DNA of 64,000 nt. Source: a virus. Made by a program: the position numbers and the translations under genes. The notes under the pieces were generated by a model. That model was not told the DNA's origin. It saw only the letters and a list, made by a program, of their open reading frames with translations, and ran no database searches. The stretch covers positions 61,080 through 125,079 of the IMG/VR virus record IMGVR_UViG_3300033145_000274. The stretch is one strand, 5' to 3'. This document shows, piece by piece, positions 12,125-48,525 of this stretch. How positions within the stretch are numbered: the first letter of the stretch is position 1; each line of letters starts with the position of its first letter.

Positions 12125-12186
12125 TAAGGGCTTAGGAACCTTCCTTGTCGTGATTTTTTTTGACACGAATAACCGGAGACAAACCA

Positions 12187-13830
12187 ATGAACAAGAATCT
12201 ATTTCAGAATCGTGGTATTCAGCGTGGCGTTCCTACGACAGACAGCCTGAACGCAGCCGGTGGAGCCGCCTACCGTTTGGACGACAAGAGCGCCCTAGCG
12301 CAATACGCGGTCACAGGGACGTTTCAGGACACCTTTTATGTGGGTGCTCAGGACCATTTGCATAATGTCGAGGCATTGGCAGCAGGTTGCGAAGCTGAGT
12401 TTATTGCCAAGCTCGCCGTCTACGCACGCGAACGAGGTAAAATGAAGGACATGCCAGCGTATCTCTTGGCTGTCCTAGCCGCGCGTGGCGAAACCGACCT
12501 GGTAAAGCGTATCTTTTCGCGTGTGTGTAACAATAGCAAGGTGCTATTAGGTTTTGCTCGTATCATTCGTTCGGGCGCCACTGGTCGTAGTTCGTTCGGT
12601 ACTGCTATGAAGCGACTAATCCAAGATTGGATTACAGACAAGAGTAATAAAGGTCTGTATGTATCTAGTATTGGTCATAGCAATCCGTCAATGGCGGACC
12701 TTATCAAAATGGTACATCCACGACCACGGGATAATGAGCAGTCGGCGATGTTCTCCTACCTTTTGGGTAGGGAATGTGACCACGACCTGTTGCCCGAAGA
12801 TATTCAGATATTTGAAAGGCTAAAGCGTGGCGAAGCCATGCGCGGTGGCACGTCATTCGGACCATCCGACAAGATGCCCGACATTCCATTTCGAGCGCTT
12901 ACAAATTGCGACCTCAGCGCAGCACAATGGCGCGATATTGCTCTGAACATGCCCTGGAACACCCTGCGTCAATCCCTCAACCTTTTGAGTCGTCGCGGCG
13001 TATTTGATGACCTGGGTGTTGTGCGCAACTTGGCCGTGAAACTAGCCGATGAAGAAAACGTGATGCAATACAATGCTTTTCCGTTTGAACTACTGGCAAC
13101 GTGGAAGGCCACAAAGGACCAGGTACCGGTAGAGATTTCTAATGCTCTACAAGAAGCCATGGAAGTAGCTACGCGCAATGTGCCGAAGCTTCCTGGTGAA
13201 ACCCTGTTGGCAGTAGATGTTTCTGGCTCCATGTGTGGTGCTGCCATTACCGGACGTAGCGCCAAGCCATCCATCGTAACGGTTGTAGAATGTGCGTCTC
13301 TTATTGCGTGTGCCCTGCTACGCAACAACAAGTCGGCCTCGTTGATTGGATTTGACAGTGCTCGATATCCGTCTTATCGTCCCAAGGGTCGCTTGGCCGG
13401 CGAGGGTGGTATCTATGTTATGGACCACATCAATCCGTTTGATAGTGTGATGACTAACGTGTCAAAAATGAATCATAGTGGGGGTGGCACTGACTGTTCA
13501 CTACCATTTCAATACTTGTTGGCTAACACTCGTGCCGTAGACAACATCATCATATTGTCAGACTATGAGAGTTGGACTTCGACCTATCGTACCGCTGGTG
13601 GTGCCGCAAGCTGTGAACAATGGCATAGATATTCGGCCAATCACAAGAAAACCAAGTTGGCCTGTGTGGACCTACAACCACAAGATACAACGCAAGTGCC
13701 CGACCAACCAGGTCGTGTAATTAACATCGGCGGCTGGAATGACCCCATGTTTCGTGTATTGGGCGATTTCTTTAACCGTAACGACAACATTGACTTCGTG
13801 ACCGTGATTGAAGACAGTGTTGAACTTTAG
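12187..13830 (+). CDS. rsr: Ro60/Rsr TROVE-domain RNA-binding protein with C-terminal vWA domain
   Basis: NAAGGAAY, GTFQDTFY, MKDMPAYLLA, vWA MIDAS DVSGSM, GGGTDCSLP, IILSDYESW. Confidence 0.9.
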   Translation: MNKNLFQNRGIQRGVPTTDSLNAAGGAAYRLDDKSALAQYAVTGTFQDTFYVGAQDHLHNVEALAAGCEAEFIAKLAVYARERGKMKDMPAYLLAVLAARGETDLVKRIFSRVCNNSKVLLGFARIIRSGATGRSSFGTAMKRLIQDWITDKSNKGLYVSSIGHSNPSMADLIKMVHPRPRDNEQSAMFSYLLGRECDHDLLPEDIQIFERLKRGEAMRGGTSFGPSDKMPDIPFRALTNCDLSAAQWRDIALNMPWNTLRQSLNLLSRRGVFDDLGVVRNLAVKLADEENVMQYNAFPFELLATWKATKDQVPVEISNALQEAMEVATRNVPKLPGETLLAVDVSGSMCGAAITGRSAKPSIVTVVECASLIACALLRNNKSASLIGFDSARYPSYRPKGRLAGEGGIYVMDHINPFDSVMTNVSKMNHSGGGTDCSLPFQYLLANTRAVDNIIILSDYESWTSTYRTAGGAASCEQWHRYSANHKKTKLACVDLQPQDTTQVPDQPGRVINIGGWNDPMFRVLGDFFNRNDNIDFVTVIEDSVEL

Positions 13831-13880: not shown

Positions 13881-13882
13881 CA

Positions 13883-14012
13883 AGGCAAATGCAGTAAAGC
13901 ATACATGATGAATGTGATGTTTTGGGGGTGTCGGACGCAAGTCCTAGTCCCCCGCGCTGGCTGATGACCTAAGTATGTAGCCGCAATTAGCGCTTTGCAT
14001 TATTTGTTGCCT
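13883..14012 (+). ncRNA. candidate Y RNA 1 (adjacent to Ro60)
   Basis: 5' AGGCAAATGCAGTAAAGCATACATG pairs with 3' GCTTTGCATTATTTGTTGCCT; same terminal architecture as three other loci. Confidence 0.7.
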
Positions 14013-14080
14013 AAAATAAATACCGAGGATGACTATTGTGGTCATCTACGAGACAGACAACAAGGGTCATCGGTCGGTTT

Positions 14081-20199: not shown

Positions 20200-20258
20200 C
20201 TGAGATAGCGTTGCCCAAGGGCGGTCTCAGGGTTTCCTGAAATCGCTCTTTTTTTTTG
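20200..20258 (+). terminator. intrinsic terminator
   Basis: GC-rich stems followed by a long T run. Confidence 0.65.
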
Positions 20259-20259
20259 G

Positions 20260-20287
20260 TTGACAATAAATTTTCTTGGTGTATAAT
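20260..20287 (+). promoter_or_regulatory. sigma70-like promoter of RNA cluster
   Basis: TTGACA-16nt-TATAAT. Confidence 0.8.
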
Positions 20288-20293
20288 ACAAGT

Positions 20294-20356
20294 GAGGCGA
20301 ATGAATTAGCGCTTACATGTCCAAAAATGAACGGCGCTGAAAATCCTTGTCGCTTC
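20294..20356 (+). ncRNA. candidate minimal Y RNA 2
   Basis: GAGGCGAATGAATTAGCGCTTACATGTCC...GGCGCTGAAAATCCTTGTCGCTTC; begins 6-7 nt after -10 box. Confidence 0.65.
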
Positions 20357-20362
20357 TTGTGT

Positions 20363-21091: not shown

Positions 21092-21178
21092 GCGTACGAG
21101 TCGGATATTAGTTGGCCGAGCCTGACTGTGAATCAGGAGGCTATTAAAGCCATGCGGGTGCAATTCCCGTCGTTCGCC
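21092..21178 (+). tRNA. tRNA-His(GTG), long variable arm
   Basis: CCTGA-CTGTGAA-TCAGG; variable hairpin GGCT-ATTAA-AGCC; C73; genomic -1 base is T. Confidence 0.85.
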
Positions 21179-21336
21179 CTTGAGGTTCTGTGTCATAGGA
21201 GACCCGCGCACCCTCTTATTACCAGTCGATACAACATGGCGTGCGGAATAGCCGGATACGTTCGTATGGTCTTGTGTTGTTTAGGTTAAAGCGACTTATA
21301 ATCGTGGCGAGCCTCAAATTTATAAGGATTTATTTT

Positions 21337-23164: not shown

Positions 23165-24394
23165 ATGAATGACATTCTTTGTATCATACCCTACTATGAT
23201 TTTCATGGCAATGAACGCCTACCAACGAATCATTATACGGGTGTGAAATCACTACAAGAACAGGGTGTTGATACGTTGGCTATTGAGGCCGTATATGATA
23301 ATCAGCCACGACTATCGGGTGATAACACGGTACAAATTGATGTACAACATCCATTGTGGTACAAGGAAAACCTGATTAACTTAGGCATACAAGAGTTTCG
23401 TGACCAGTATAAATACATCGGCTGGATTGACTCGGGGTTGTTGCTTAATGATGGGTGGGTAGAGTTAGCCCTGGACAAATTACACCACGTAGACCTCATA
23501 CAGTGTTTTCGGTCGGGCAATTGGTTCAATGAACACGGCATGATTGAATACATAACAGATGGTTATATTTATACACAAGTAATGGATGTGAGATTTCCCA
23601 ATCGTCCTTCTCCGGGAGGCGCGTGGGTTGCACGGTCCAGTGTATTATCGGATAACTTTTTGTATGACCGCAACATTGTGGGTGGTGGAGATTCCCTGCT
23701 GGCATATACAGTGTTACGTAACGGAGCAGTACATTCAGAACTTAAACACTACACACAGGAACACGGCGAACACTATTTAGAATGGCACGAACAACTATCA
23801 CAACGCAACTTAACATGTTCATACATTCGAGGTAGCTTTACGCACCTGTGGCACGCCACCCTAAAACAACGACAACACATACAACGACATCAAATTCTCA
23901 AACAGTATAACTACAATCCAGTGCGAGACCTGTTATACGACCCAAGTGGTCTGCTAACTTACAGTCCCGACGTAAATACTGACTTGCCCGATGCAATACA
24001 TAAGTATTTGGTGCATAGAACTAAATTCACACCACAAAACGCCACATCATCACGACCAGCGTCCGTTAGGTTTCTTTGTAACATAGACCTGCCTGTATTA
24101 CACAAGGGCCATGAGCGCATAGTACATTTTAATGCTGGTGATACACATCCAGCAATCAGAATTGAAGTGCATGATGGTAACCAAAATGATATTTACAAAC
24201 CAGATGGTAGTGTAATTTTGGATGTTGCAGATGACATGTTTGAAAACGGGTGCAATCGTGTTCTTGTAACACATGGTGTGCCCGTACGCCAACCAATGCC
24301 AGTTACATCAAAGATAGACGACTTTAGAACCGGACCGCCTACCAATCCCACACGAATGTCCTATGCTATGGGCGGGAAACCACACACAAAATGA
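23165..24394 (+). CDS. glycosyltransferase-like protein (paralog of 43282-44256)
   Basis: LWYKENLIN, WIDSGL, PGGAWVAR, NIVGGGDSLL, HLWH shared with paralog. Confidence 0.6.
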   Translation: MNDILCIIPYYDFHGNERLPTNHYTGVKSLQEQGVDTLAIEAVYDNQPRLSGDNTVQIDVQHPLWYKENLINLGIQEFRDQYKYIGWIDSGLLLNDGWVELALDKLHHVDLIQCFRSGNWFNEHGMIEYITDGYIYTQVMDVRFPNRPSPGGAWVARSSVLSDNFLYDRNIVGGGDSLLAYTVLRNGAVHSELKHYTQEHGEHYLEWHEQLSQRNLTCSYIRGSFTHLWHATLKQRQHIQRHQILKQYNYNPVRDLLYDPSGLLTYSPDVNTDLPDAIHKYLVHRTKFTPQNATSSRPASVRFLCNIDLPVLHKGHERIVHFNAGDTHPAIRIEVHDGNQNDIYKPDGSVILDVADDMFENGCNRVLVTHGVPVRQPMPVTSKIDDFRTGPPTNPTRMSYAMGGKPHTK

Positions 24395-24897
24395 TATTTA
24401 CCACACAGCGAAAACTAGTTGAATTAGCCGAGAAGGATATGTATTGGCATCCGTGGAACATACGCTGGGAATATATGCTGGTCACCATGGCATGGCTACA
24501 AGATATTCAACCTACGACTATCCTAGAAGCAGGCACCAATGGACTTACAGTGTGTGAGGATAGTGATACGATTGGTTTAGGCAAAGCAGATACAATTCAC
24601 GACCTGCGATGTACACCATGGCCATTTGAAGACAAACAATACGATGTATTCATTGCATTACAGGTATGGGAACATCTTACATATAAGCAGGAAAGTGCAT
24701 TCACCGAGGCTAGTCGCATTGCTAAACACATCATCATGAGCTTTCCGTATATGTGGGACTACGCCAATGGACATTGTCATAATGGCATAGACGAAGACAC
24801 AATCAATGAGTGGGCCGGTAGCCAACCCGACAAAGCACTATTGGTCAATGATTCTTATACACGTTCACGCCTGGTATGTTATTGGAACAAGACATGA
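24391..24897 (+). CDS. SAM-dependent methyltransferase-like protein
   Basis: ILEAGTNG, PFEDKQYDVFIALQVWEHL. Confidence 0.65.
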   Translation: MIFTTQRKLVELAEKDMYWHPWNIRWEYMLVTMAWLQDIQPTTILEAGTNGLTVCEDSDTIGLGKADTIHDLRCTPWPFEDKQYDVFIALQVWEHLTYKQESAFTEASRIAKHIIMSFPYMWDYANGHCHNGIDEDTINEWAGSQPDKALLVNDSYTRSRLVCYWNKT

Positions 24898-25298
24898 AAG
24901 TCATCATAGCGGGATGCCGTTGGATTGAAAATTACGACATAGTCTGTGAAGCCATTGAGGACAGCGGTTTTACGGTCACGGAAGTGGTGTCGGGCACAGC
25001 CAATGGAGTGGATACGTTGGGGGAAAACTGGGCAGAGGCACACGATATTCCTATTAAGCACTTTCCTGCTAATTGGAAAAACCTCAAGGTTAAGGGCGCT
25101 GTCATCCGAAAGAATAGGTATGGGAAGTACAACGCCGCCGCCGGACATGTGCGCAACGAACAAATGGCAGAGTATGGTGATGCTCTGGTGGCTATTTGGG
25201 ACCAAAAATCACGAGGTACCGCCAATATGATTGAGTTGGCACGTAAACATGGATTGAAAGTACACATTTTTCTAGTAGAAGCAAAGGATGAACGATAA
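24894..25298 (+). CDS. SLOG/YspA-like (DUF2493-type) protein
   Basis: VIIAGCR, VVSGTANGVD, AAGHVRNEQMA, SRGTANM. Confidence 0.8.
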   Translation: MKVIIAGCRWIENYDIVCEAIEDSGFTVTEVVSGTANGVDTLGENWAEAHDIPIKHFPANWKNLKVKGAVIRKNRYGKYNAAAGHVRNEQMAEYGDALVAIWDQKSRGTANMIELARKHGLKVHIFLVEAKDER

Positions 25299-25361
25299 TG
25301 AGAACTCATTCTTACATTCTCCATAGGTTTAGTATGCTTTAATATAGCACTACTTTAACCT

Positions 25362-25982
25362 ATGGAGTTGCAAATGCGTGACAAAACCAAACACCCAACT
25401 TATCGACGTGAGCCTCGTACGACCCAGGAACGTCGGGCTAACGGCAAGCGCAGCGAATGGGGACGTGGCAGGCGCAATCAAAGCAATTTGGTTGATGCTT
25501 ATAGTGACCGTCCGGTGACCATCCAGAAGACCTGGAAGGTTAAGCGTCGTCACCAATACCGTGAGCGTAGCCGTGGACAGCAGCACACAATCTTCCTGCC
25601 GAATGGCAGCGGGCCAAGTTGGCGCTTCTGGATAAACATCTGGGAGTTGGAACAGTGGTTCAATAACCACGACATTCCGTGCTGTGTTGAAAAGGTGGAG
25701 AAAATTGAGACGCGAATTGAAACACATCGACGTGAGTACAGGGCGATTGGATGGGAATCGTATACCTATGTCCGCCCCGTGCGTCCGCGTAAGAAGGGCG
25801 CAAAGAAAACCCTGACCCGATATGAGACCAAGACCTCATGGCGTAATGTCTGCGGTTGGGTGAAGATAAAGCTACCTAAGCCACGTGTGAGTCATTGGTC
25901 TACCTTGATAGGCTACAACGTAACGTGGTGGAGTGGCAAGGACATTGGTATTGAACGTGTTTTGCAACGTAGTGTTAGGTAA
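25362..25982 (+). CDS. basic hypothetical phage protein
   Basis: Arg-rich ORF of 206 aa. Confidence 0.6.
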   Translation: MELQMRDKTKHPTYRREPRTTQERRANGKRSEWGRGRRNQSNLVDAYSDRPVTIQKTWKVKRRHQYRERSRGQQHTIFLPNGSGPSWRFWINIWELEQWFNNHDIPCCVEKVEKIETRIETHRREYRAIGWESYTYVRPVRPRKKGAKKTLTRYETKTSWRNVCGWVKIKLPKPRVSHWSTLIGYNVTWWSGKDIGIERVLQRSVR

Positions 25983-26211
25983 AGTGGTCATTTGAATATC
26001 TTTATTCAACAAATTTTTGGACTTGATTACACACGTGGGAATTGGGACGATTAGTAGGCCCCTTAATCAGAAATGCTCACTGCCGTTGGCGCTGAGTTCC
26101 CACGTTTTTGATACACTCAGCCCTAGTTGGCAAGGGTGCGGCGAGCGCTAGTCGCTAAGTGGTGATGGTTGACAACGAGCCATAATCGTTGATGGGATTT
26201 GCCATCCCTAT

Positions 26212-26287
26212 GGAGGTCTGGTGTAGCTGGTGCGCACGGTAGTCTGAAGAACTACAGGACTTGACGGTTCGATTCCGTGGGCCTCCA
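26212..26287 (+). tRNA. tRNA-Phe(GAA)
   Basis: GTAGT-CTGAAGA-ACTAC; GGAGGTC/GGCCTCC-A. Confidence 0.88.
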
Positions 26288-26289
26288 CT

Positions 26290-26412
26290 GGTGAATGCAG
26301 TGAGACTTACATGCATTTTAAGCCGTAGTTGCGAGTGCAAGACTCGTCCACGCCTAGCGTGGTAGCTTAATTAGTAAAGCAACGCCAATTTGTCTTACGT
26401 ACCTTGTCACCA
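26290..26412 (+). ncRNA. YrlA-type Y RNA 3 (circularly permuted tRNA mimic)
   Basis: order: T arm GCGAG-TGCAAGA-CTCGT, closed acceptor CCACGC-CTA-GCGTGG, D arm TAGCTTAATTAGTAAAGC; closed by GGTGA/TCACC stem; T8 follows. Confidence 0.85.
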
Positions 26413-26421
26413 TTTTTTTTA

Positions 26422-26494
26422 CCTGCCTAGCCCATCCGGTGGTGGGGGCTGGCTGTCAACCAGTTTGTGGCGAGTTCGACTCTCGTAGGTGGGG
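26422..26494 (+). tRNA. tRNA-Asp(GTC)
   Basis: GCTGG-CTGTCAA-CCAGT; G73. Confidence 0.88.
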
Positions 26495-26554
26495 CTAAAC
26501 GGTCGGGCGACACGCTATTAAGCATCGCCCAATTGCTAGGGCCGTTTTTTAGAC

Positions 26555-26582
26555 TTGACATTTCTCATTTTGGTCGTAAAAT
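26555..26582 (+). promoter_or_regulatory. sigma70-like promoter upstream of Y RNA 4
   Basis: TTGACA-16nt-TAAAAT. Confidence 0.7.
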
Positions 26583-26629
26583 AAAAGTGAGTGGTGGAGG
26601 TGGGGAGCGAAAGCTCCCGTCTGTATCTT

Positions 26630-26761
26630 GGCGAATGTAATAAGACTTACATGTCCCGTTGTATGTTGCGAGTTCAAATCTCGTCCGTGCCGCTTTGTGG
26701 TGCGGTAGCTCAATTGGCAGAGCGACGACCCTAAAAAACGGTCTTATGTTGTTAGTCGCCA
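26630..26761 (+). ncRNA. YrlA-type Y RNA 4 (circularly permuted tRNA mimic)
   Basis: GGCGAATG 5' motif; T arm GCGAG-TTCAAAT-CTCGT, closed acceptor CCGTGCCGC-TTT-GTGGTGCGG, D arm TAGCTCAATTGGCAGAGC; GGCGA/TCGCC closure. Confidence 0.9.
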
Positions 26762-26796
26762 TTTAATTTGTTAAGGTGAGTAAAGGAAATAGGAAA

Positions 26797-27156
26797 ATGA
26801 AAACTTTTGGATTGGTAATTGGTGGACTGGTTTCTTTTGTTGGATTGGTTATTCTCTTGGGCGCATTGGGCCTCGGGGGAAGATGGGTCAACATGAAAGT
26901 CGAAGCCTGGTTTGCACCACGAGAGCAGAACATTCAACGTGAGGTCTTCGAGAATACGAAGTCATATAACGAAGCCAAGGAACAAGAGCTTGTTAAGCAC
27001 AAGTTTGAGTGGGAAAAAGCAAAGGGAAAAGATGACGTTGGCACTATGAAAGCTGTTGAGTCTGCCGTGCGTCATAAGTTTGCGGATTACGAGGATAATC
27101 GTTTGTCTCCTGAACTTCAGGAGTTTGTTCGTCACTGTAAATATGGAGGATTGTAA
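26797..27156 (+). CDS. membrane-anchored hypothetical protein
   Basis: N-terminal TM; RBS aggaaa. Confidence 0.7.
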   Translation: MKTFGLVIGGLVSFVGLVILLGALGLGGRWVNMKVEAWFAPREQNIQREVFENTKSYNEAKEQELVKHKFEWEKAKGKDDVGTMKAVESAVRHKFADYEDNRLSPELQEFVRHCKYGGL

Positions 27157-27158
27157 GG

Positions 27159-27722
27159 ATGAAGTGTGTACTGGATAACCTATTTCGATTGGTGGTACTA
27201 ACCCTGGTAATTGGTTGCCTGAGCGGCTGCGCAGCCGATAAACGACCGGCTCAAGATGCTGACCTGATTCAGCAAAAGGCAACTGCACAGTCGATGGCTG
27301 AAGCCCAACGTCAAATTGGAATGCCAGCTATCAAAAACTTCCAAGAAAAGAAATTGGCAAAGATGATTTTCGAGTTGCGTGACCAGGAGGACTACATATG
27401 TCATGCATACCTGATGAATCAGATGACTGGTAACATTGGTCAGTACCTTGGCAAATGCCTGGGTTATGGCTTGCCGTACTCAGTACAGTTTACAAACCCG
27501 GAAAAACCCGAGTTTGTTGACGGTGGTCAGTATGGAGCAATCAATCCATATACATTGCCACAAGCTGACCCCAATGGCTTGTTCATGCCTTCCGGCCTGA
27601 GTGCCACGTGGATTATGTTGTATGACAAGGAAAAAGAGGACTTTCGACCCGTTTATGTCGAGCCTTTAATCATTGTTAGTCCCTTCCCATTGGAAACTGG
27701 TATGTCAATGGAACCTACGTAA
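27159..27722 (+). CDS. putative lipoprotein
   Basis: lipobox LSGC after hydrophobic signal; GYGLPYSVQFTNP, DPNGLF. Confidence 0.75.
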   Translation: MKCVLDNLFRLVVLTLVIGCLSGCAADKRPAQDADLIQQKATAQSMAEAQRQIGMPAIKNFQEKKLAKMIFELRDQEDYICHAYLMNQMTGNIGQYLGKCLGYGLPYSVQFTNPEKPEFVDGGQYGAINPYTLPQADPNGLFMPSGLSATWIMLYDKEKEDFRPVYVEPLIIVSPFPLETGMSMEPT

Positions 27723-27723
27723 T

Positions 27724-27797
27724 GGGCGCTTAGCTCAGGGGTTTAGAGCATCACGTTGACATCGTGAAAGTCGCTGGTTCGATTCCAGTAGTGCCCA
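27724..27797 (+). tRNA. tRNA-Val(GAC)
   Basis: TCACG-TTGACAT-CGTGA. Confidence 0.93.
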
Positions 27798-27964
27798 CTG
27801 TGAATAACCCGACGACCGTTAATCTGAGGGTTCGGTTGAAGCTGGCCTGTTGGACGCAATTAGCCCGACATTACATGTAGTGTCTAAACCAGCCGCAACA
27901 CACGGAGAAGTCTGATATTTTGCTGGCTTTCAAACTCCGTTACCAAAGTCGAAAACCAGCGCGC

Positions 27965-28035
27965 GGGCGTGTAGTATAATGGAAGTGCATCTGGCTTACA
28001 TCCAGAAAGCGGGGGTTCAATTCCCTTCATGCCCA
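27965..28035 (+). tRNA. tRNA-Val(TAC)
   Basis: TCTGG-CTTACAT-CCAGA. Confidence 0.92.
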
Positions 28036-28060
28036 CTAAGCAGGATGCCCACTAAGCAGG
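28029..28060 (+). repeat. 16-bp tandem duplication overlapping tRNA-Val 3' end
   Basis: ATGCCCACTAAGCAGG x2. Confidence 0.9.
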
Positions 28061-28069
28061 AAAGCAAAC

Positions 28070-28285
28070 ATGATTAAATTTACCAGAGCCGAGTGCCTAC
28101 AACGCGAGCGTGACTGTACACACGCGCGTAGTCTCACATGCCTTCCAGGCTCAGGTAGTTATTATTTTTGTGATGATTGTGGTACTTACTTCTCCATGTT
28201 TGACTATCCAAAAACTACTCCGATGCGCATAGGCAAATGGAGTGACCACCTATTGGGGCGTGATAATGCCCGTAGACTTTGGTGA
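28070..28285 (+). CDS. small zinc-binding protein (paralog of 39912-40277)
   Basis: CTH..TCLPGSGSYYFCDDCG. Confidence 0.6.
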   Translation: MIKFTRAECLQRERDCTHARSLTCLPGSGSYYFCDDCGTYFSMFDYPKTTPMRIGKWSDHLLGRDNARRLW

Positions 28286-28530
28286 GAGTGGCCAAAATGA
28301 CAGATGACCCAGTTCAACGCGACGAACGTATCAAAAAGGGCGTGGTGCTGTCCACAGAACGTGGTCAGCTTTACGTAGCACAAGGACGTTATTATAGAAA
28401 GTGTGATGGGACCTCAAATGGCTGGTACGGCATGGGCTTTAATGGGGAGCGTGTGAAGGCCGATGTACCTGAGTTTGTAGCGTCTACCATAAATGCTTAT
28501 ATAACTAGTACATATGGAAGTGAGGATTAG
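28279..28530 (+). CDS. hypothetical protein
   Basis: ORF overlapping neighbours. Confidence 0.5.
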   Translation: MVRVAKMTDDPVQRDERIKKGVVLSTERGQLYVAQGRYYRKCDGTSNGWYGMGFNGERVKADVPEFVASTINAYITSTYGSED

Positions 28531-28964
28531 TGATGTTAAGGACTTTATTGTTTGCGCTAGTATTAACGTTGGGTTTTGCTAACCAATCATTAGCCATCGA
28601 GCCACTGATACTAATGCGCTATGGTGATGCCTACCATGCAATACAAAAGTATAATGTGAATGGTATCTTTGTTTTTACGGCCTCATGGTGTGAGCCGTGC
28701 AAAAAAATGAAGAAGGATACATGGACACCCTTGATGTCACAAATCAAGACCAAGTACATTATTTATTTTGTGGATGTAGAAGCTGAACCAGATATTGTTA
28801 AGAAATGGCAAGCCATGGGTATGGTTCAAAACATACCGGCATACGCCTTGACAACCAGGGGTGGGACGCGCATTATTTCATATGACGCTGGTTACCGCAA
28901 CAAAAGTAACCTAATGAAGTGGGTCAATGATGGTATTCTGTCATTGAAAAAGAGACGACGATAG
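28530..28964 (+). CDS. secreted thioredoxin-like protein
   Basis: signal peptide; FTASWCEPCKKM; NIPAY. Confidence 0.85.
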   Translation: MMLRTLLFALVLTLGFANQSLAIEPLILMRYGDAYHAIQKYNVNGIFVFTASWCEPCKKMKKDTWTPLMSQIKTKYIIYFVDVEAEPDIVKKWQAMGMVQNIPAYALTTRGGTRIISYDAGYRNKSNLMKWVNDGILSLKKRRR

Positions 28965-28967
28965 TAT

Positions 28968-29039
28968 TGTCCTGTAGTGTAATTGGTAGCACGAGACACT
29001 CTGAATGTTTTAGTTTTGGTTCGAGTCCAAACAGGATAG
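28968..29039 (+). tRNA. tRNA-Gln(CTG)
   Basis: AGACA-CTCTGAA-TGTTT. Confidence 0.9.
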
Positions 29040-29045
29040 CTTGCT

Positions 29046-29116
29046 TGCTCTATGGTGTAATGGTAGCACATGTGCTTTTGGCGCACAGAGTCCGAGTTCA
29101 AATCTTGGTGGAGCAT
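29046..29116 (+). tRNA. tRNA-Gln(TTG)
   Basis: TGTGC-TTTTGGC-GCACA. Confidence 0.9.
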
Positions 29117-29190
29117 CTTTAGTCTAACTTAAAAGATTTTGGTTGTCTTGGGTTCGATTTGGTGTATGGTATTATATAGGAGATAATACT

Positions 29191-29919
29191 ATGCGAAAAA
29201 AAACCAGCCCAATCTGGCAAGTGTCCAAGGCAAAGTTGATAACTTATGTCAATGCTAGCAAAACTTTTACTGAGGTGTTGGAAAAATTTGGATTACAATT
29301 GAAGGGCAATAATAACCAAACACTAAAGCAAAGATTACATAAAGACAACATAGACTATGGTCACATAACACCGACACATAAATACGAAGGTGTTCCCATA
29401 GCAGCTAAACCACTTGAGAACATACTGGTTGAAAACTCTCAGTATAATAGATGCCACCTAAAAAACAGACTCATAAAGGAGGGTATTCTACAATATCATT
29501 GTGCTTCGTGTGGGTGTGATACATGGCTTGACAAACCACTAATGTTGCAACTTGACCACATCAATGGCATTAGTAATGACAATAGAATAGAAAACTTACG
29601 ATTATTGTGTCCTAATTGTCATAGTCAAACAAATACCTTTGGTGGTAAGAATAAAAAGACATCCGTGGGTTCTGGTCGTGGTAGATATTTTACAAATAGT
29701 TGCAAAGATTGTGGAACACCCATATTAAACAACTCAACTAGATGTAAAAAATGTGCAGCTAATAATCGAACAGACAATCGCAAGGTTCTGAATAGACCAT
29801 CATTGCAACAACTATTGTTGGATGTAAAACAACTGGGTTATGTCGGTGCTGGAAAAAAATATGGAGTGTCTGACAATTCTATCCGTAAATGGATAAAAAA
29901 ATACCAGACGTTGCCGTAA
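29191..29919 (+). mobile_element. free-standing HNH homing endonuclease
   Basis: CASCG..LQLDHINGISNDNRIENLRLLCPNCHSQT; C-terminal zinc finger and HTH (YGVSDNSIRKW). Confidence 0.9.
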
Positions 29920-30001
29920 TTAGAAGTGGTATCGAATCCTGGAATAAGGTTGGTCTTGCGCTGGCTCGACTCCCTACGTCGCTGCTTTATAGGAGAACCG
30001 T

Positions 30002-44798: not shown

Positions 44799-45900
44799 TA
44801 CTATTGAGGCGTTGATACGTAAGGGTATACCAACTGTGTTTTATATAACCGGTGGTGGTTCAGGTGCTATCTATGAACTATTGCGATATGGTGGAGCATC
44901 ATCGTTTTTTCTGGAAGCTCAAGTACCATACGATAACCAATGCGTAACGGAATTACTGGGCGGATATAAGCCAGATAAATTCTGTGCGCAAAGTACGGCT
45001 AGCATGTTGGCGACCTGCGCCTATAAACGTGCCACTACCCTGACTGGCACACACTCCGTGATAGGTGTTGGGTCTACAGCCAAGCTACAAAAAATAGGTA
45101 CAGAACGTGATGGTAGAGAGCACATATTATACATAGCTATTCATAGCAAAAATCGTACTCTTACTTCACAGTTGAGGTTTTGTAATATGGTACGTGACCG
45201 TAGAGAAGAAGAAGAAACTGCCATGGGTATGATTGTCAAGGAATACTGCTACTTCCTTGGCATTCCATGCTTTACACCATCATTATATCAATCAGAGCAA
45301 CCATTGGTTGAAGACGTAACATCACCCTGGCACATGACTCCACATGTACAACCATTTGATATGGGCGCCATTACTTATAATCCACTCACTACTAAAAATC
45401 CGGTGATTTTTCCTGGTTCGTTCGACCCAGTACATAGTGGTCACATCAAGATGGCCGAACATGCCTATAAAATAACCAACAAGGCCGTGTGGTTTGAAAT
45501 CTCATTGACAAATTGTTCTAAGCCACCCATAGACTGGGTTTCACTCGTAAAACGCTGTGGTTACTTTGATGCACACAAAGATAATCCAGCATTTGCGGGT
45601 TTGATATTCACCGATGCCCCATTGTTTATGCACAAGGCACGTTTGTTTTACGAACCCATATTCATTACTGGACATGACACCGTATTACGCATTGACAACC
45701 CAAGATATTATAGTAGTAACATTGCTCATTGCGATTCCATCAATGATTTAATACAACAACGTGTACAATTTCTAGTATTTGACCGTAAGGGTTCTATGAA
45801 CGTGCCATTCCGACACCTGGGAATGGAAACTCTTTGTACTAACGTGATAGAGTATTTTGACGCAGGTGAAAATTCTACTGATTTAAGAGGAGGAACATAA
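44788..45900 (+). CDS. CinA-like/NadD-type nucleotidyltransferase fusion
   Basis: N-terminal TGGGSGA..EAQVPY (CinA-C-like); C-terminal FPGSFDPVHSGH and TGHDTVLRI. Confidence 0.8.
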   Translation: MCRDTIEALIRKGIPTVFYITGGGSGAIYELLRYGGASSFFLEAQVPYDNQCVTELLGGYKPDKFCAQSTASMLATCAYKRATTLTGTHSVIGVGSTAKLQKIGTERDGREHILYIAIHSKNRTLTSQLRFCNMVRDRREEEETAMGMIVKEYCYFLGIPCFTPSLYQSEQPLVEDVTSPWHMTPHVQPFDMGAITYNPLTTKNPVIFPGSFDPVHSGHIKMAEHAYKITNKAVWFEISLTNCSKPPIDWVSLVKRCGYFDAHKDNPAFAGLIFTDAPLFMHKARLFYEPIFITGHDTVLRIDNPRYYSSNIAHCDSINDLIQQRVQFLVFDRKGSMNVPFRHLGMETLCTNVIEYFDAGENSTDLRGGT

Positions 45901-47838: not shown

Positions 47839-48525
47839 ATGACCATCAAAATGTATCTTGTTGGTGGTGCTGTACGAGACCAGATTCTTGGTATTCCATC
47901 CAATGACCTAGACTTTGCCGTAGAAGCCCCGTCGTATGAAGCCATGAGGGCTGAGATTGAACGACGTGGCGGAACCATCTTTTTAGAGAAGCCAGAGTAC
48001 CTAACGATTCGTGCTCGCATACCTGAACTAGGTGCTGCGGACTATGTATTGTGTCGTAAGGACGGCTCCTACATTGATGGACGACGACCAGAAGACGTGG
48101 AGCCCGGTACGTTGATAGACGACCTATCCCGTCGTGACTTCACCATGAACGCTATTGCCATGACTGAAGATGGTGAATATATTGACCCGTTTAATGGTCG
48201 TCAGTCTATGGACGGGGATATCATTCACTGTGTTGGAGACACATACAAGCGGTTTGAGGAGGACTATCTACGTATGCTGAGAGCAATTCGGTTCTCGATT
48301 ACCAAAGATATGACAATGTCCCCACAAATTTTTGCATGTCTTGAACACCCTGAAATGGTACGACACATACGACGTGTGGCGACCGAACGTGTTCGAGAGG
48401 AAATGCTCAAGTGTTTCCATTGTGATACGTTAAAGACGCTCAAAATACTAGAGTGTCTGCCCTTGGTACGTGATGCTATCTTTGACCACGGGGCTTTGTG
48501 GCTGAAGCCGACGTTGGAAAAGTAA
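47839..48525 (+). CDS. cca: class II tRNA nucleotidyltransferase (CCA-adding enzyme, short form)
   Basis: YLVGGAVRD, DLDFAV, DDLSRRDFTMNA, EDYLRMLRAIRF, ERVREE. Confidence 0.9.
   Translation: MTIKMYLVGGAVRDQILGIPSNDLDFAVEAPSYEAMRAEIERRGGTIFLEKPEYLTIRARIPELGAADYVLCRKDGSYIDGRRPEDVEPGTLIDDLSRRDFTMNAIAMTEDGEYIDPFNGRQSMDGDIIHCVGDTYKRFEEDYLRMLRAIRFSITKDMTMSPQIFACLEHPEMVRHIRRVATERVREEMLKCFHCDTLKTLKILECLPLVRDAIFDHGALWLKPTLEK

What the first reader, a model, noticed from the sequence alone, without database searches (positions are those of the whole stretch)
26290..26761. Two YrlA-type circularly permuted tRNA mimics within a tRNA cluster
Both show T arm, then hairpin-closed acceptor stem, then D arm. 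This is a tRNA permuted at the anticodon, matching the established YrlA architecture. Y RNA 4 has a textbook D loop (AGCTCAATTGGCAGAGC) and T loop (TTCAAAT). Y RNA 3 has a variant TGCAAGA T loop. They flank tRNA-Asp, and standard tRNA callers would likely miss them.
Basis: partly seen in the sequence, partly recalled or inferred. Interest (0 to 1): 0.75.

Follow-up and report, generated by a model that had tools for sequence, protein, structure and literature searches.

The report
Two phage Y RNAs mimicking tRNA
Two small RNA genes in the tRNA cluster of an uncultured large phage are genuine "inside-out tRNA" Y RNAs, the known partner RNAs of the Ro60 ring protein that this phage also encodes, so they are new members of a described RNA class and not a new kind of element.

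Summary

**What is there**
- Window 26288-26416 and 26628-26765 (+) both match Rfam YrlA (RF02553) over its full length. E-values are 1.4e-10 and 6.2e-7, at 58 and 45 bits, below the curated 69-bit cut-off.
- An accepted mycobacteriophage YrlA scores only 37 bits, so that cut-off does not exclude them.
- Each RNA has a terminal stem carrying the Ro-binding motif. Then come a second helix, a YUACAUG motif, a T arm, a loop-closed acceptor stem and a D arm.

**Support from relatives**
- All five helices covary in 27 to 85 homologues from Ro60-encoding phage contigs.
- Two tRNA tertiary pairs, 15:48 and 18:55, covary as well.
- The odd T loop of RNA "3" (G55) always comes with A18 in the D loop.

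**Link to Ro60**
- An intact Ro60/Rsr gene lies 12.5 kb upstream on the same strand.
- Model hits occur in 59 of 80 Ro60-encoding phage records. Among 26 phage records chosen without regard to Ro60, only one has a hit, and it is the only one encoding Ro60.

**Biogenesis**
- RNA "3" is wedged between tRNA-Phe and tRNA-Asp. RNA "4" has its own strong promoter.

Phage YrlA RNAs have been published since 2014. This scan has also noted similar RNAs on other phage DNA.

The parts
26288..26416 (+). Y RNA '3', YrlA type, about 125-129 nt. Elements: terminal stem 26289-26294/26407-26412; motif GGUGAAUG 26290-26297; helix 2 26300-26306/26392-26398; UUACAUG 26307-26313; V insert with AUUUUAA loop 26313-26323; 3-bp anticodon-stem remnant 26324-26326/26382-26384; T arm 26331-26347 (loop UGCAAGA); closed acceptor hairpin 26348-26362; D arm 26365-26380 (loop AAUUAGUA).
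   Evidence: Rfam RF02553 58.2 bits, E 1.5e-12 local and 1.4e-10 whole window, model 1-114. MFE fold. Covariation. Coordinates.
26628..26765 (+). Y RNA '4', YrlA type, about 133-138 nt. Elements: terminal stem 26629-26634/26756-26761; motif GGCGAAUG 26630-26637; helix 2 26640-26646/26741-26747; UUACAUG 26647-26653; 5-bp anticodon-type stem 26658-26662/26725-26729; variable loop AUGUU; T arm 26668-26684 (loop UUCAAAU); closed acceptor hairpin 26685-26705; D arm 26708-26723 (loop AAUUGGCA).
   Evidence: Rfam RF02553 45.5 bits, E 6.8e-9 local and 6.2e-7 whole window, model 1-114. MFE fold. Covariation. Coordinates.
26212..26288 (+). tRNA-Phe(GAA). Its discriminator base is 26287, two bases before the terminal stem of Y RNA '3'. 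No CCA is encoded.
   Evidence: ARAGORN. Rfam tRNA 42.3 bits.
26422..26495 (+). tRNA-Asp(GUC). It starts 9 nt (UUUUUUUUA) after the terminal stem of Y RNA '3'. ARAGORN miscalls it Leu-CAA.
   Evidence: ARAGORN output and manual cloverleaf. Rfam gives only 35.6 bits to tRNA-Sec.
26497..26550 (+). Branched hairpin followed by U6, terminator-like. It would end the tRNA-Phe / Y RNA '3' / tRNA-Asp unit.
   Evidence: Fold -21.1 kcal/mol, z -2.8. The simple terminator scan did not call it.
26555..26582 (+). Sigma-70-type promoter TTGACA-16 nt-TAAAAT, 11 of 12 consensus positions, upstream of Y RNA '4'.
   Evidence: Promoter scan.
26593..26627 (+). Leader hairpin with a GAAA loop, between the predicted transcription start and Y RNA '4'.
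   Evidence: Fold -18.7 kcal/mol, z -3.4, 0 of 200 shuffles as stable.
12187..13830 (+). Ro60/Rsr orthologue (TROVE plus Ro60 vWA domain, 547 aa; the longest ORF starts at 12160). Presumed protein partner, 12.5 kb upstream on the same strand.
   Evidence: Pfam vWA_Ro60 6.5e-13 and TROVE 6.8e-6. PDB 2nvo, D. radiodurans Rsr, 1.3e-12, with the DVSGSM MIDAS motif aligned. Homologues named 60 kDa SS-A/Ro.
13882..14016 (+). Sister Y RNA '1'. It shares the handle (GGCAAAUG, helix 2, AUACAUG) but has a different middle domain. Listed as context only.
   Evidence: Motif search found 4 sites against 0.06 expected. Weak R1 hit of 28.4 bits.
20294..20359 (+). Sister Y RNA '2'. A short handle-only form (YrlB-like) with its own promoter, directly upstream of tRNA-Asn. 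Listed as context only.
   Evidence: Motif search. R1 hit of 25.6 bits. Sequence read.

Best explanation
Both elements are genes for YrlA-class Y RNAs.

Structure (shown here):
- A terminal handle is formed by the 5' and 3' ends. It comprises a 6-bp stem with the GNCGAA(U)G-type motif, a second 7-bp helix and a conserved YUACAUG.
- The middle of each RNA folds like the upper part of a tRNA, in the order T arm, loop-closed acceptor stem, D arm.
- The two loops dock to form the tRNA elbow.

Function (inferred from characterised systems):
- The handle presumably docks onto the phage's own Ro60/Rsr ring protein (12187-13830).
- The tRNA-shaped module then presents an elbow to a second factor, most likely host polynucleotide phosphorylase or another elbow-binding protein.
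- The phage would thereby build its own Ro60 particles that retarget RNA decay or RNA surveillance during infection.

Biogenesis (inferred from the gene layout):
- RNA '3' is made as part of a tRNA-Phe / Y / tRNA-Asp precursor. Its ends would be set by the 3' trimming of tRNA-Phe and by RNase P cutting in front of tRNA-Asp.
- RNA '4' is transcribed from its own strong host-type promoter, behind a leader hairpin.

Ro60 binding, the effector and the processing steps are inferred and have not been tested.
For: 1. Rfam YrlA matches both RNAs end to end.
2. On 27 homologues, 97.3% of cells are paired against about 45% when partners are slid, and 26 of 28 pairs show double changes.
3. An independent MAFFT plus RNAalifold run on 21 sequences finds the same five helices, with 30 of 32 pairs compensated.
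4. Y '3' and Y '4' differ from each other by compensatory changes in the terminal stem, helix 2, the acceptor stem and the D stem.
5. Tertiary pairs covary in 85 homologues. For 15:48 the counts are G:C 38, A:U 30, A:C 0 and G:U 2. For 18:55 they are G:U 63, A:G 11-12 and G:G at most 1. Both Y '3' and Y '4' have U8, A14, A15:U48, G19:C56 and U54/A58.
6. An intact Ro60 gene lies on the same strand.
7. Co-occurrence: hits of model R2 occur in 59 of 80 Ro60-encoding IMG/VR records, and in 19 of 22 of those at least 90% complete. In 26 records picked through an unrelated neighbouring protein, only G098 has an R2 hit, and it is the only one with a Ro60 homologue.
8. 52 of 85 homologues abut a same-strand tRNA or another Y RNA within 15 nt.
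9. Published precedent: YrlA in 254 bacteria and 22 phages, and the D. radiodurans Yrn2-tRNAAsp-Yrn1 precursor (PMC4201824); the YrlA crystal structure (10.1101/312249); Thermus phage phiLo Ro60 binding two phage Y-like RNAs and host PNPase (PMC12135203).
Against: Both Rfam scores (58.2 and 45.5 bits) are below the curated 69-bit gathering score. The Ro60 gene is 12.5 kb away, outside the 4-kb window used to define confident YrlA genes in Chen et al. 2014. Y '3' carries U instead of C in the GNCGAA motif, compensated on the other strand, and G55/A18 instead of the canonical U55/G18. There is no transcript, binding or processing datum for this phage. No terminator follows Y '4', so its 3' end is undefined. 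The covariation counts are not corrected for phylogeny, and the larger alignments were fitted to my own model.
Confidence: 0.85

Rival explanations
1. Ro60-independent tRNA mimics. The RNAs act on their own as decoys or competitors for host proteins that recognise the tRNA elbow or acceptor stem, such as tRNA-targeting defence nucleases, modification enzymes or RNase P. The handle would only stabilise them.
For: They sit in a tRNA array and follow tRNA tertiary rules, including the same A18/G55 variant seen in 12 real phage tRNAs of these genomes. The Ro60 gene is not adjacent (12.5 kb away). M. smegmatis YrlA is an RNase P and CCA-adding substrate (PMC4201824).
Against: The handle carries the conserved Ro-binding-type motif and covaries. 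Model hits track the presence of Ro60 across 106 phage records: 59 of 80 with Ro60, against 1 of 26, the one with Ro60. Neither RNA has a real anticodon arm to bait anticodon nucleases.
Confidence: 0.08
2. Y RNA '4' is mainly a cis-acting 5' leader of the downstream membrane or lipoprotein genes (ATG at 26798, then 27159-27722), and not a free small RNA.
For: A strong promoter at 26555-26582 precedes it. No terminator lies between 26765 and the ribosome-binding site and ATG at 26798.
Against: It has the full YrlA architecture and is the third-best hit of the family model, at 110 bits. Homologues in other phages lie between tRNAs and not in front of this gene. Relatives of the downstream protein lack the RNA.
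Confidence: 0.04
3. Genuinely permuted or split tRNA genes that are processed, for example through circular intermediates, into working tRNAs.
For: The order T arm, acceptor, D arm is that of a permuted tRNA. Y '4' has a 7-bp acceptor stem. The phage encodes a CCA-adding enzyme.
Against: In Y '3' the acceptor is a 6-bp hairpin closed by 3 nt, with no discriminator or room for two cuts. Y '4' has no anticodon loop at all. Both are clamped by a Ro-type handle that tRNAs lack.
Confidence: 0.02
4. Chance or decay product: a covariance-model false positive from a T arm and a D arm of neighbouring or decayed tandem tRNAs.
For: RF02553 gives sub-threshold hits in 6 of 14 control genomes, most of them lacking Ro60. 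Chen et al. warn about tandem tRNAs. Partial hits, model positions 44-100, of that kind occur in my searches.
Against: Both hits here are full length and include the handle. They do not overlap called tRNAs. They have many homologues with compensatory changes in every helix. Model R2 gave no hit at E<=1e-8 in 25 tRNA-bearing phage records without Ro60.
Confidence: 0.01

Closest known systems
Salmonella Typhimurium YrlA (Rfam RF02553; crystal structure PDB 6CU1, described in 10.1101/312249)
   Same: Same order of parts: terminal stem with GNCGAAN0-1G, second helix, YUAY, T arm, loop-closed acceptor stem, UA linker, D arm. Y '3' has the same 6-bp acceptor with a 3-nt loop. The same elbow and Levitt-pair nucleotides are present.
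   Different: Encoded in a phage tRNA array 12.5 kb from Ro60, instead of within the rsr-yrlBA-rtcBA operon. No RtcB was found in the 125-kb record. Scores are below the Rfam cut-off. Y '3' has A18/G55.
[quoted passage not shown] 2014, PMC4201824, as summarised in PMC12135203)
   Same: Phage-encoded Ro60 plus a tRNA-like Y RNA. These also score below the Rfam cut-off: 37.4 bits for phage BackyardAgain, next to its Ro gene.
   Different: Those RNAs were accepted only within 4 kb of Ro60. Here there are two YrlA-type copies plus two other handle-bearing RNAs dispersed over 13 kb among tRNAs. The lineage is different: the closest cultured Ro60 is Myxococcus phage Mx1, at 37% identity.
Thermus phage phiLo Ro60 with Yrl1 and Yrl2 (PMC12135203)
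   Same: A phage Ro60 with more than one phage-encoded Y-like RNA. That paper demonstrates binding and a ternary complex with host PNPase, which is the best experimental model for the mechanism proposed here.
   Different: As described in that paper, phiLo Yrl RNAs are stem-bulge-stem RNAs next to the Ro60 gene, identified by a CGAA motif. A tRNA-like module is not reported for them.
Deinococcus radiodurans Yrn2 - tRNA-Asp - Yrn1 precursor (PMC4201824)
   Same: Y RNAs co-transcribed with a tRNA. Here too the two Y RNAs flank a tRNA-Asp.
   Different: Yrn1 has a different arm order and only partial D-loop features. In this phage a terminator-like hairpin and a promoter separate tRNA-Asp from Y '4'.
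Permuted tRNA genes of the red alga Cyanidioschyzon merolae (from my own knowledge, not checked here)
   Same: The 3' half of the tRNA precedes the 5' half in the gene.
   Different: Those are matured into normal, chargeable tRNAs. The RNAs here have a sealed acceptor end and a Ro-type handle.

Membership tests
YrlA (Y RNA-like A, Rfam RF02553) | Statistically significant, full-length match to the family covariance model | tested here: met
   58.2 bits with E 1.4e-10, and 45.5 bits with E 6.2e-7, for the whole 64-kb window against all 4227 families. Both cover model positions 1-114.
YrlA (Y RNA-like A, Rfam RF02553) | Score at or above Rfam's curated gathering score (69 bits). This is an annotation threshold, not a biological feature. 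| tested here: inconclusive
   Not reached (58.2 and 45.5 bits). It is also not reached by any of 50 Ro60-encoding phage records, nor by the YrlA next to Ro60 in a mycobacteriophage of the group accepted by Chen et al. (37.4 bits). The threshold therefore does not discriminate for phage members.
YrlA (Y RNA-like A, Rfam RF02553) | GNCGAAN0-1G motif near the 5' end, inside a stem formed by the 5' and 3' ends | tested here: met
   Y '4' has GGCGAAUG at 26630-26637, an exact match. Y '3' has GGUGAAUG at 26290-26297, C to U, with the pairing partner changed from G to A. The terminal stem is paired in 98% of cells, with double changes at all 6 pairs.
YrlA (Y RNA-like A, Rfam RF02553) | tRNA-like module in the order T arm, loop-closed acceptor-type stem, D arm, with the nucleotides for tRNA tertiary contacts | tested here: met
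   All three hairpins are found by the covariance model, by MFE folding and by RNAalifold. U8, A14, A15:U48, G19:C56 and U54/A58 are present in both. The 15:48 and 18:55 pairs covary in 85 homologues. Y '3' uses the A18:G55 variant.
YrlA (Y RNA-like A, Rfam RF02553) | Encoded with a Ro60/Rsr orthologue, on the same strand (within 4 kb in Chen et al. 2014) | tested here: inconclusive
   An intact Ro60 gene is on the same strand, but 12.5 kb upstream. The 4-kb criterion is not met. Genome-level co-occurrence is strong: 59 of 80 records with Ro60, against 1 of 26 records chosen without regard to Ro60, that one having Ro60.
YrlA (Y RNA-like A, Rfam RF02553) | Bound and stabilised by Rsr/Ro60 in vivo | not testable with these tools
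   Needs immunoprecipitation or gel-shift experiments.
YrlA (Y RNA-like A, Rfam RF02553) | Carries tRNA-type modifications (pseudouridine 55, dihydrouridine) and is a substrate of tRNA enzymes | not testable with these tools
   Sequence only. Y '3' has G at position 55 and so cannot carry pseudouridine 55.

The most novel reading that the evidence does not exclude
The phage builds several differently aimed Ro60 particles. Y '4' presents a canonical G18/U55 tRNA elbow. Y '3' belongs to a recurrent A18/G55 subclass, found in at least 9 phage records, that cannot receive pseudouridine 55. That subclass may recruit, or evade, a different elbow-binding factor. These Y RNAs would also be integral cistrons of phage tRNA operons, matured by RNase P and tRNA 3' processing. 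Many keep an anticodon-arm-like hairpin of the form NU-NNN-RA: 15 of 85 against 0.7 expected. That would be direct sequence evidence for the proposed birth of YrlA from tRNA dimers.
Probability: 0.2. Interest if true: 0.55.

Novelty: new member of a known kind. Interest (0 to 1): 0.35.

Why it matters
The practical points are these.

- **Unannotated genes.** Standard tRNA callers and Rfam at its default threshold miss these genes. About three quarters of the Ro60-encoding phage contigs examined carry them, often in several copies and far from the Ro60 gene. Searches restricted to the Ro60 neighbourhood therefore undercount phage Y RNAs.
- **A cultured test system.** The cultured Myxococcus phage Mx1 has an unannotated homologue. 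What phage Ro60 particles do during infection is an open question for this class, and it could be tested in that system.
- **Fold evidence from sequence.** Covariation of two tertiary pairs, including an A18:G55 alternative shared with real phage tRNAs, shows from sequence alone that the tRNA elbow forms.

None of this changes the known picture of Y RNAs. It extends that picture to a new phage lineage.

Tried and rejected
- Megablast of 24000-30000 against cultured phages found no match.
- A scan of IMG/VR with the handle motif returned 72 loci, almost all chance matches. Only L016 was a real, short Y-like RNA.
- Relatives of the upstream ORF 25362-25982: none found.
- Relatives of the downstream ORF 27159-27722: 26 loci, but no Y RNA within 4 kb or anywhere in 25 of those records. 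The RNAs are therefore not syntenic with that gene.
- A search of viral contigs with the single Ro60 protein found nothing. An alignment of 26 Ro60 homologues was needed.
- RtcB, the operon partner in Salmonella, is absent from the 125-kb record. The record is only about 69% complete.
- ARAGORN's tRNA-Leu(CAA) reading of 26422-26495 was rejected in favour of Asp(GUC).
- I noticed that Y '3', Y '4' and tRNA-Asp share the same T stem (GCGAG/CUCGU). I did not pursue this as a sign of local duplication, because the other arms are unrelated and the YrlA consensus has a similar stem.
- The 230-nt spacer upstream of tRNA-Phe shows no significant fold.

Full report
**Setting.** The window is the right-hand 64 kb of a 125-kb IMG/VR virus record estimated to be about 69% complete. 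It carries 30 tRNA genes and a tmRNA, all on the + strand. No cultured phage matches it at the DNA level.

- Rfam's YrlA model (RF02553) matches 26288-26416 at 58.2 bits and 26628-26765 at 45.5 bits. Both matches cover model positions 1-114.
- E-values are 1.5e-12 and 6.8e-9 for the local search, and 1.4e-10 and 6.2e-7 for the whole window against all 4227 families.
- These are the only YrlA hits at E<=0.01 in the window. A model built from the two finds no third copy in the whole record.
- Thermodynamic folding alone gives the terminal stem and three consecutive hairpins in both.
- Element coordinates come and are listed under parts.

**Y RNA '4'** is a textbook case.
- It has a 5-bp anticodon-type stem (GUUGU/ACGAC) and a 5-nt variable loop.
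- The T arm is 5 bp with loop UUCAAAU.
- The acceptor stem is 7 bp, extended by two pairs and sealed by UUU.
- The U8-A9 linker is followed by a 4-bp D stem with loop AAUUGGCA.

**Y RNA '3'** matches the Rfam consensus acceptor, 6 bp with a 3-nt loop. It has T loop UGCAAGA and D loop AAUUAGUA. It also has a 13-nt insert between the handle and the T arm.

**The gene between them is tRNA-Asp.** The canonical cloverleaf has anticodon loop CUGUCAA, a 5-bp stem and G73. ARAGORN's Leu(CAA) fold needs a U-U mismatch and a pyrimidine at position 37.

**Homologues.**
- An alignment of 26 Ro60 homologues retrieved 80 Ro60-encoding IMG/VR loci.
- Rfam YrlA hits 25 of the first 50 records at E<=1e-3. No record reaches the 69-bit gathering score, and many have several hits.
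- A model built from Y '3' and Y '4' recovered 27 full-length homologues. On that alignment 97.3% of cells are paired, against 39-52% when partners are slid by 1-3 columns. 26 of 28 pairs show changes on both sides, and every helix covaries.
- That alignment is fitted to the model, so I also ran MAFFT plus RNAalifold on 21 sequences. It predicts the same five helices, and 30 of 32 pairs have compensatory changes.
- Y '3' and Y '4' themselves differ by compensatory changes in four helices.
- Conserved single-stranded motifs are GAAUGC after the terminal stem, YUACA(U) after helix 2 and YUUGUC on the 3' strand. These correspond to the GNCGAAN0-1G and YUAY motifs of Chen et al. 2014 (PMC4201824).

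**Tertiary structure.** A broader model gave 85 distinct homologues.
- The Levitt pair 15:48 is G:C in 38 and A:U in 30. The mixed forms are A:C in 0 and G:U in 2.
- The 18:55 contact is G:U in 63 and A:G in 11 or 12 (one row is ambiguous). A:U occurs in 4.
- The 'variant' T loop of Y '3' (G55) is therefore one half of a recurrent covarying pair with A18.
- Twelve ordinary tRNAs in these phage loci have the same UGC T loop. The D loops I inspected by eye also carry AG in place of GG. One of the twelve is the window's tRNA-His at 21092-21179.
- These counts are not corrected for shared ancestry.

**Link to Ro60.**
- The ORF at 12187-13830 (+) matches Pfam vWA_Ro60 (6.5e-13) and TROVE (6.8e-6). 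It aligns over about 445 residues with D. radiodurans Rsr (PDB 2nvo, 1.3e-12), including the DVSGSM metal-site motif.
- It lies 12.5 kb upstream of Y '3', beyond the 4-kb criterion of Chen et al.
- Model R2 hits 59 of 80 Ro60-encoding records at E<=1e-5, and 19 of 22 of those at least 90% complete.
- As a control I used 26 phage records picked through the unrelated protein at 27159-27722. Only one (G098) has a hit at E<=1e-8. It is also the only one with a Ro60 homologue, which lies 1.2 kb from the RNA.
- The other 25 records have neither. Eight of them are at least 90% complete.

**Biogenesis.**
- The discriminator of tRNA-Phe is at 26287, and the terminal stem of Y '3' starts at 26289. That stem ends at 26412, and tRNA-Asp starts at 26422 after UUUUUUUUA.
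- Among the 85 homologues, 52 abut a same-strand tRNA or another Y RNA within 15 nt on at least one side, and 20 do so on both sides. Tandem arrays of up to five occur.
- I therefore infer that tRNA end-processing enzymes release Y '3'. This parallels the D. radiodurans Yrn2-tRNAAsp-Yrn1 precursor (PMC4201824).
- After tRNA-Asp come a branched hairpin with a U6 tail (26497-26550) and a TTGACA-16-TAAAAT promoter (26555-26582). A GAAA-loop leader hairpin (26593-26627) follows, and then Y '4'.
- No terminator follows Y '4', so its 3' end is unknown.
- The phage encodes a CCA-adding-type nucleotidyltransferase. No RtcB was found.

**Comparison with the literature.** All of the following are published:
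- tRNA-like Y RNAs in 254 bacteria and 22 phages, with a less conserved 'V' stem-loop upstream of the T arm and a covarying Levitt pair (PMC4201824).
- The description of YrlA as a circularly permuted tRNA with a closed acceptor stem, its origin from tRNA dimers, and the note that Y RNA genes lie next to tRNAs in some bacteria (10.1101/312249).
- A phage Ro60 that binds two phage Y-like RNAs and host PNPase (PMC12135203).

As a calibration, the YrlA beside the Ro60 gene of mycobacteriophage BackyardAgain scores only 37.4 bits in Rfam. Failure to reach 69 bits is therefore normal for phage members.

**Extras.**
- The cultured Myxococcus phage Mx1 carries the closest cultured Ro60, at 37% identity. 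It has an unannotated YrlA-type RNA at 45169-45297 (78.9 bits with R2).
- A second handle-bearing RNA lies at 45521-45627, under a 40-codon 'hypothetical protein'. Both are in its tRNA cluster, 11.6 kb from its Ro60 gene.
- In the 85 homologues, the stretch between YUACA and the T arm forms a hairpin with a 7-nt loop in 33 cases, against a shuffle mean of 14. In 15 cases the loop has the anticodon-loop pattern NU-NNN-RA, against a shuffle mean of 0.7 and a maximum of 4.
- Y '3' has the loop AUUUUAA on only a 2-bp stem, and Y '4' has no such hairpin.
- This fits the published tRNA-dimer origin model, but it is my reading and has not been tested further.

**Verdict.** They are new members of a known kind, in a phage lineage where they had not been annotated. 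Earlier notes of this scan report similar tRNA-mimic Y-like RNAs in the tRNA operons of other phages, and four handle-bearing RNAs in this same genome. I confirmed the four sites with a motif search: 4 found against 0.06 expected.

Noticed in passing
window 26422-26495: ARAGORN calls this tRNA Leu(CAA) using a mismatched anticodon stem. The canonical cloverleaf gives Asp(GUC) with U33, A37 and G73. It has A instead of U at position 8, and the Rfam tRNA model does not reach its cut-off on it.
   Followed up: yes
window 21092-21179 and 11 tRNAs in L195, L168, L104, L105, L111, L117: Ordinary phage tRNAs with T loop UGC (G55 instead of U55). By eye, the D loops show AG in place of GG, the same A18:G55 alternative elbow contact as in Y RNA '3'.
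   Followed up: partly
L261 (Myxococcus phage Mx1, OR576727.2 45169-45297, 45521-45627 and 45299-45372): The cultured phage Mx1 has an unannotated YrlA-type RNA. A second handle-bearing RNA overlaps a 40-codon 'hypothetical protein'. An unannotated tRNA (Rfam 47.7 bits) lies directly after the first RNA.
   Followed up: partly
L185 1188-1911 (IMG/VR record G043, complete with terminal repeats): Five Y-type RNAs lie head to tail with 2-7 nt spacers. Other records have up to 12 model hits (G007) or 9-10 (G014, G026, G027, G052, G069).
   Followed up: partly
A6 alignment, stretch between YUACA and the T arm: The 'V' hairpin of many phage YrlA-type RNAs looks like an anticodon arm: 3-5 bp with a 7-nt loop NU-NNN-RA, in 15 of 85 against 0.7 expected from shuffles. 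This is as expected if these RNAs arose from tRNA dimers.
   Followed up: partly
window 26497-26582 and 20210-20290: A stem-loop with a T run lies immediately before a near-consensus sigma-70 promoter, in front of Y RNA '4' and of Y RNA '2'. The layout resembles the promoter-early stem-loop cassettes another note reports for this genome.
   Followed up: no
window 47851-48222: CCA-adding or poly(A) polymerase family nucleotidyltransferase (Pfam PolyA_pol, 78.7 bits). This is consistent with the phage tRNA genes not encoding CCA.
   Followed up: no
records G008, G017, G022-G024, G040, G046 and others: Many hits of 60-75 nt span the whole model with the tRNA-like middle deleted. These are handle-only, YrlB-like short Y RNAs, often in tandem pairs, like window 20294-20359.
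   Followed up: no
G098:C1:15582-16187: The Ro60 homologue of this record has one in-frame TAG inside the match. This could be a broken gene, a sequencing error or a recoded stop. A strong Y RNA hit lies 1.2 kb upstream.
   Followed up: no
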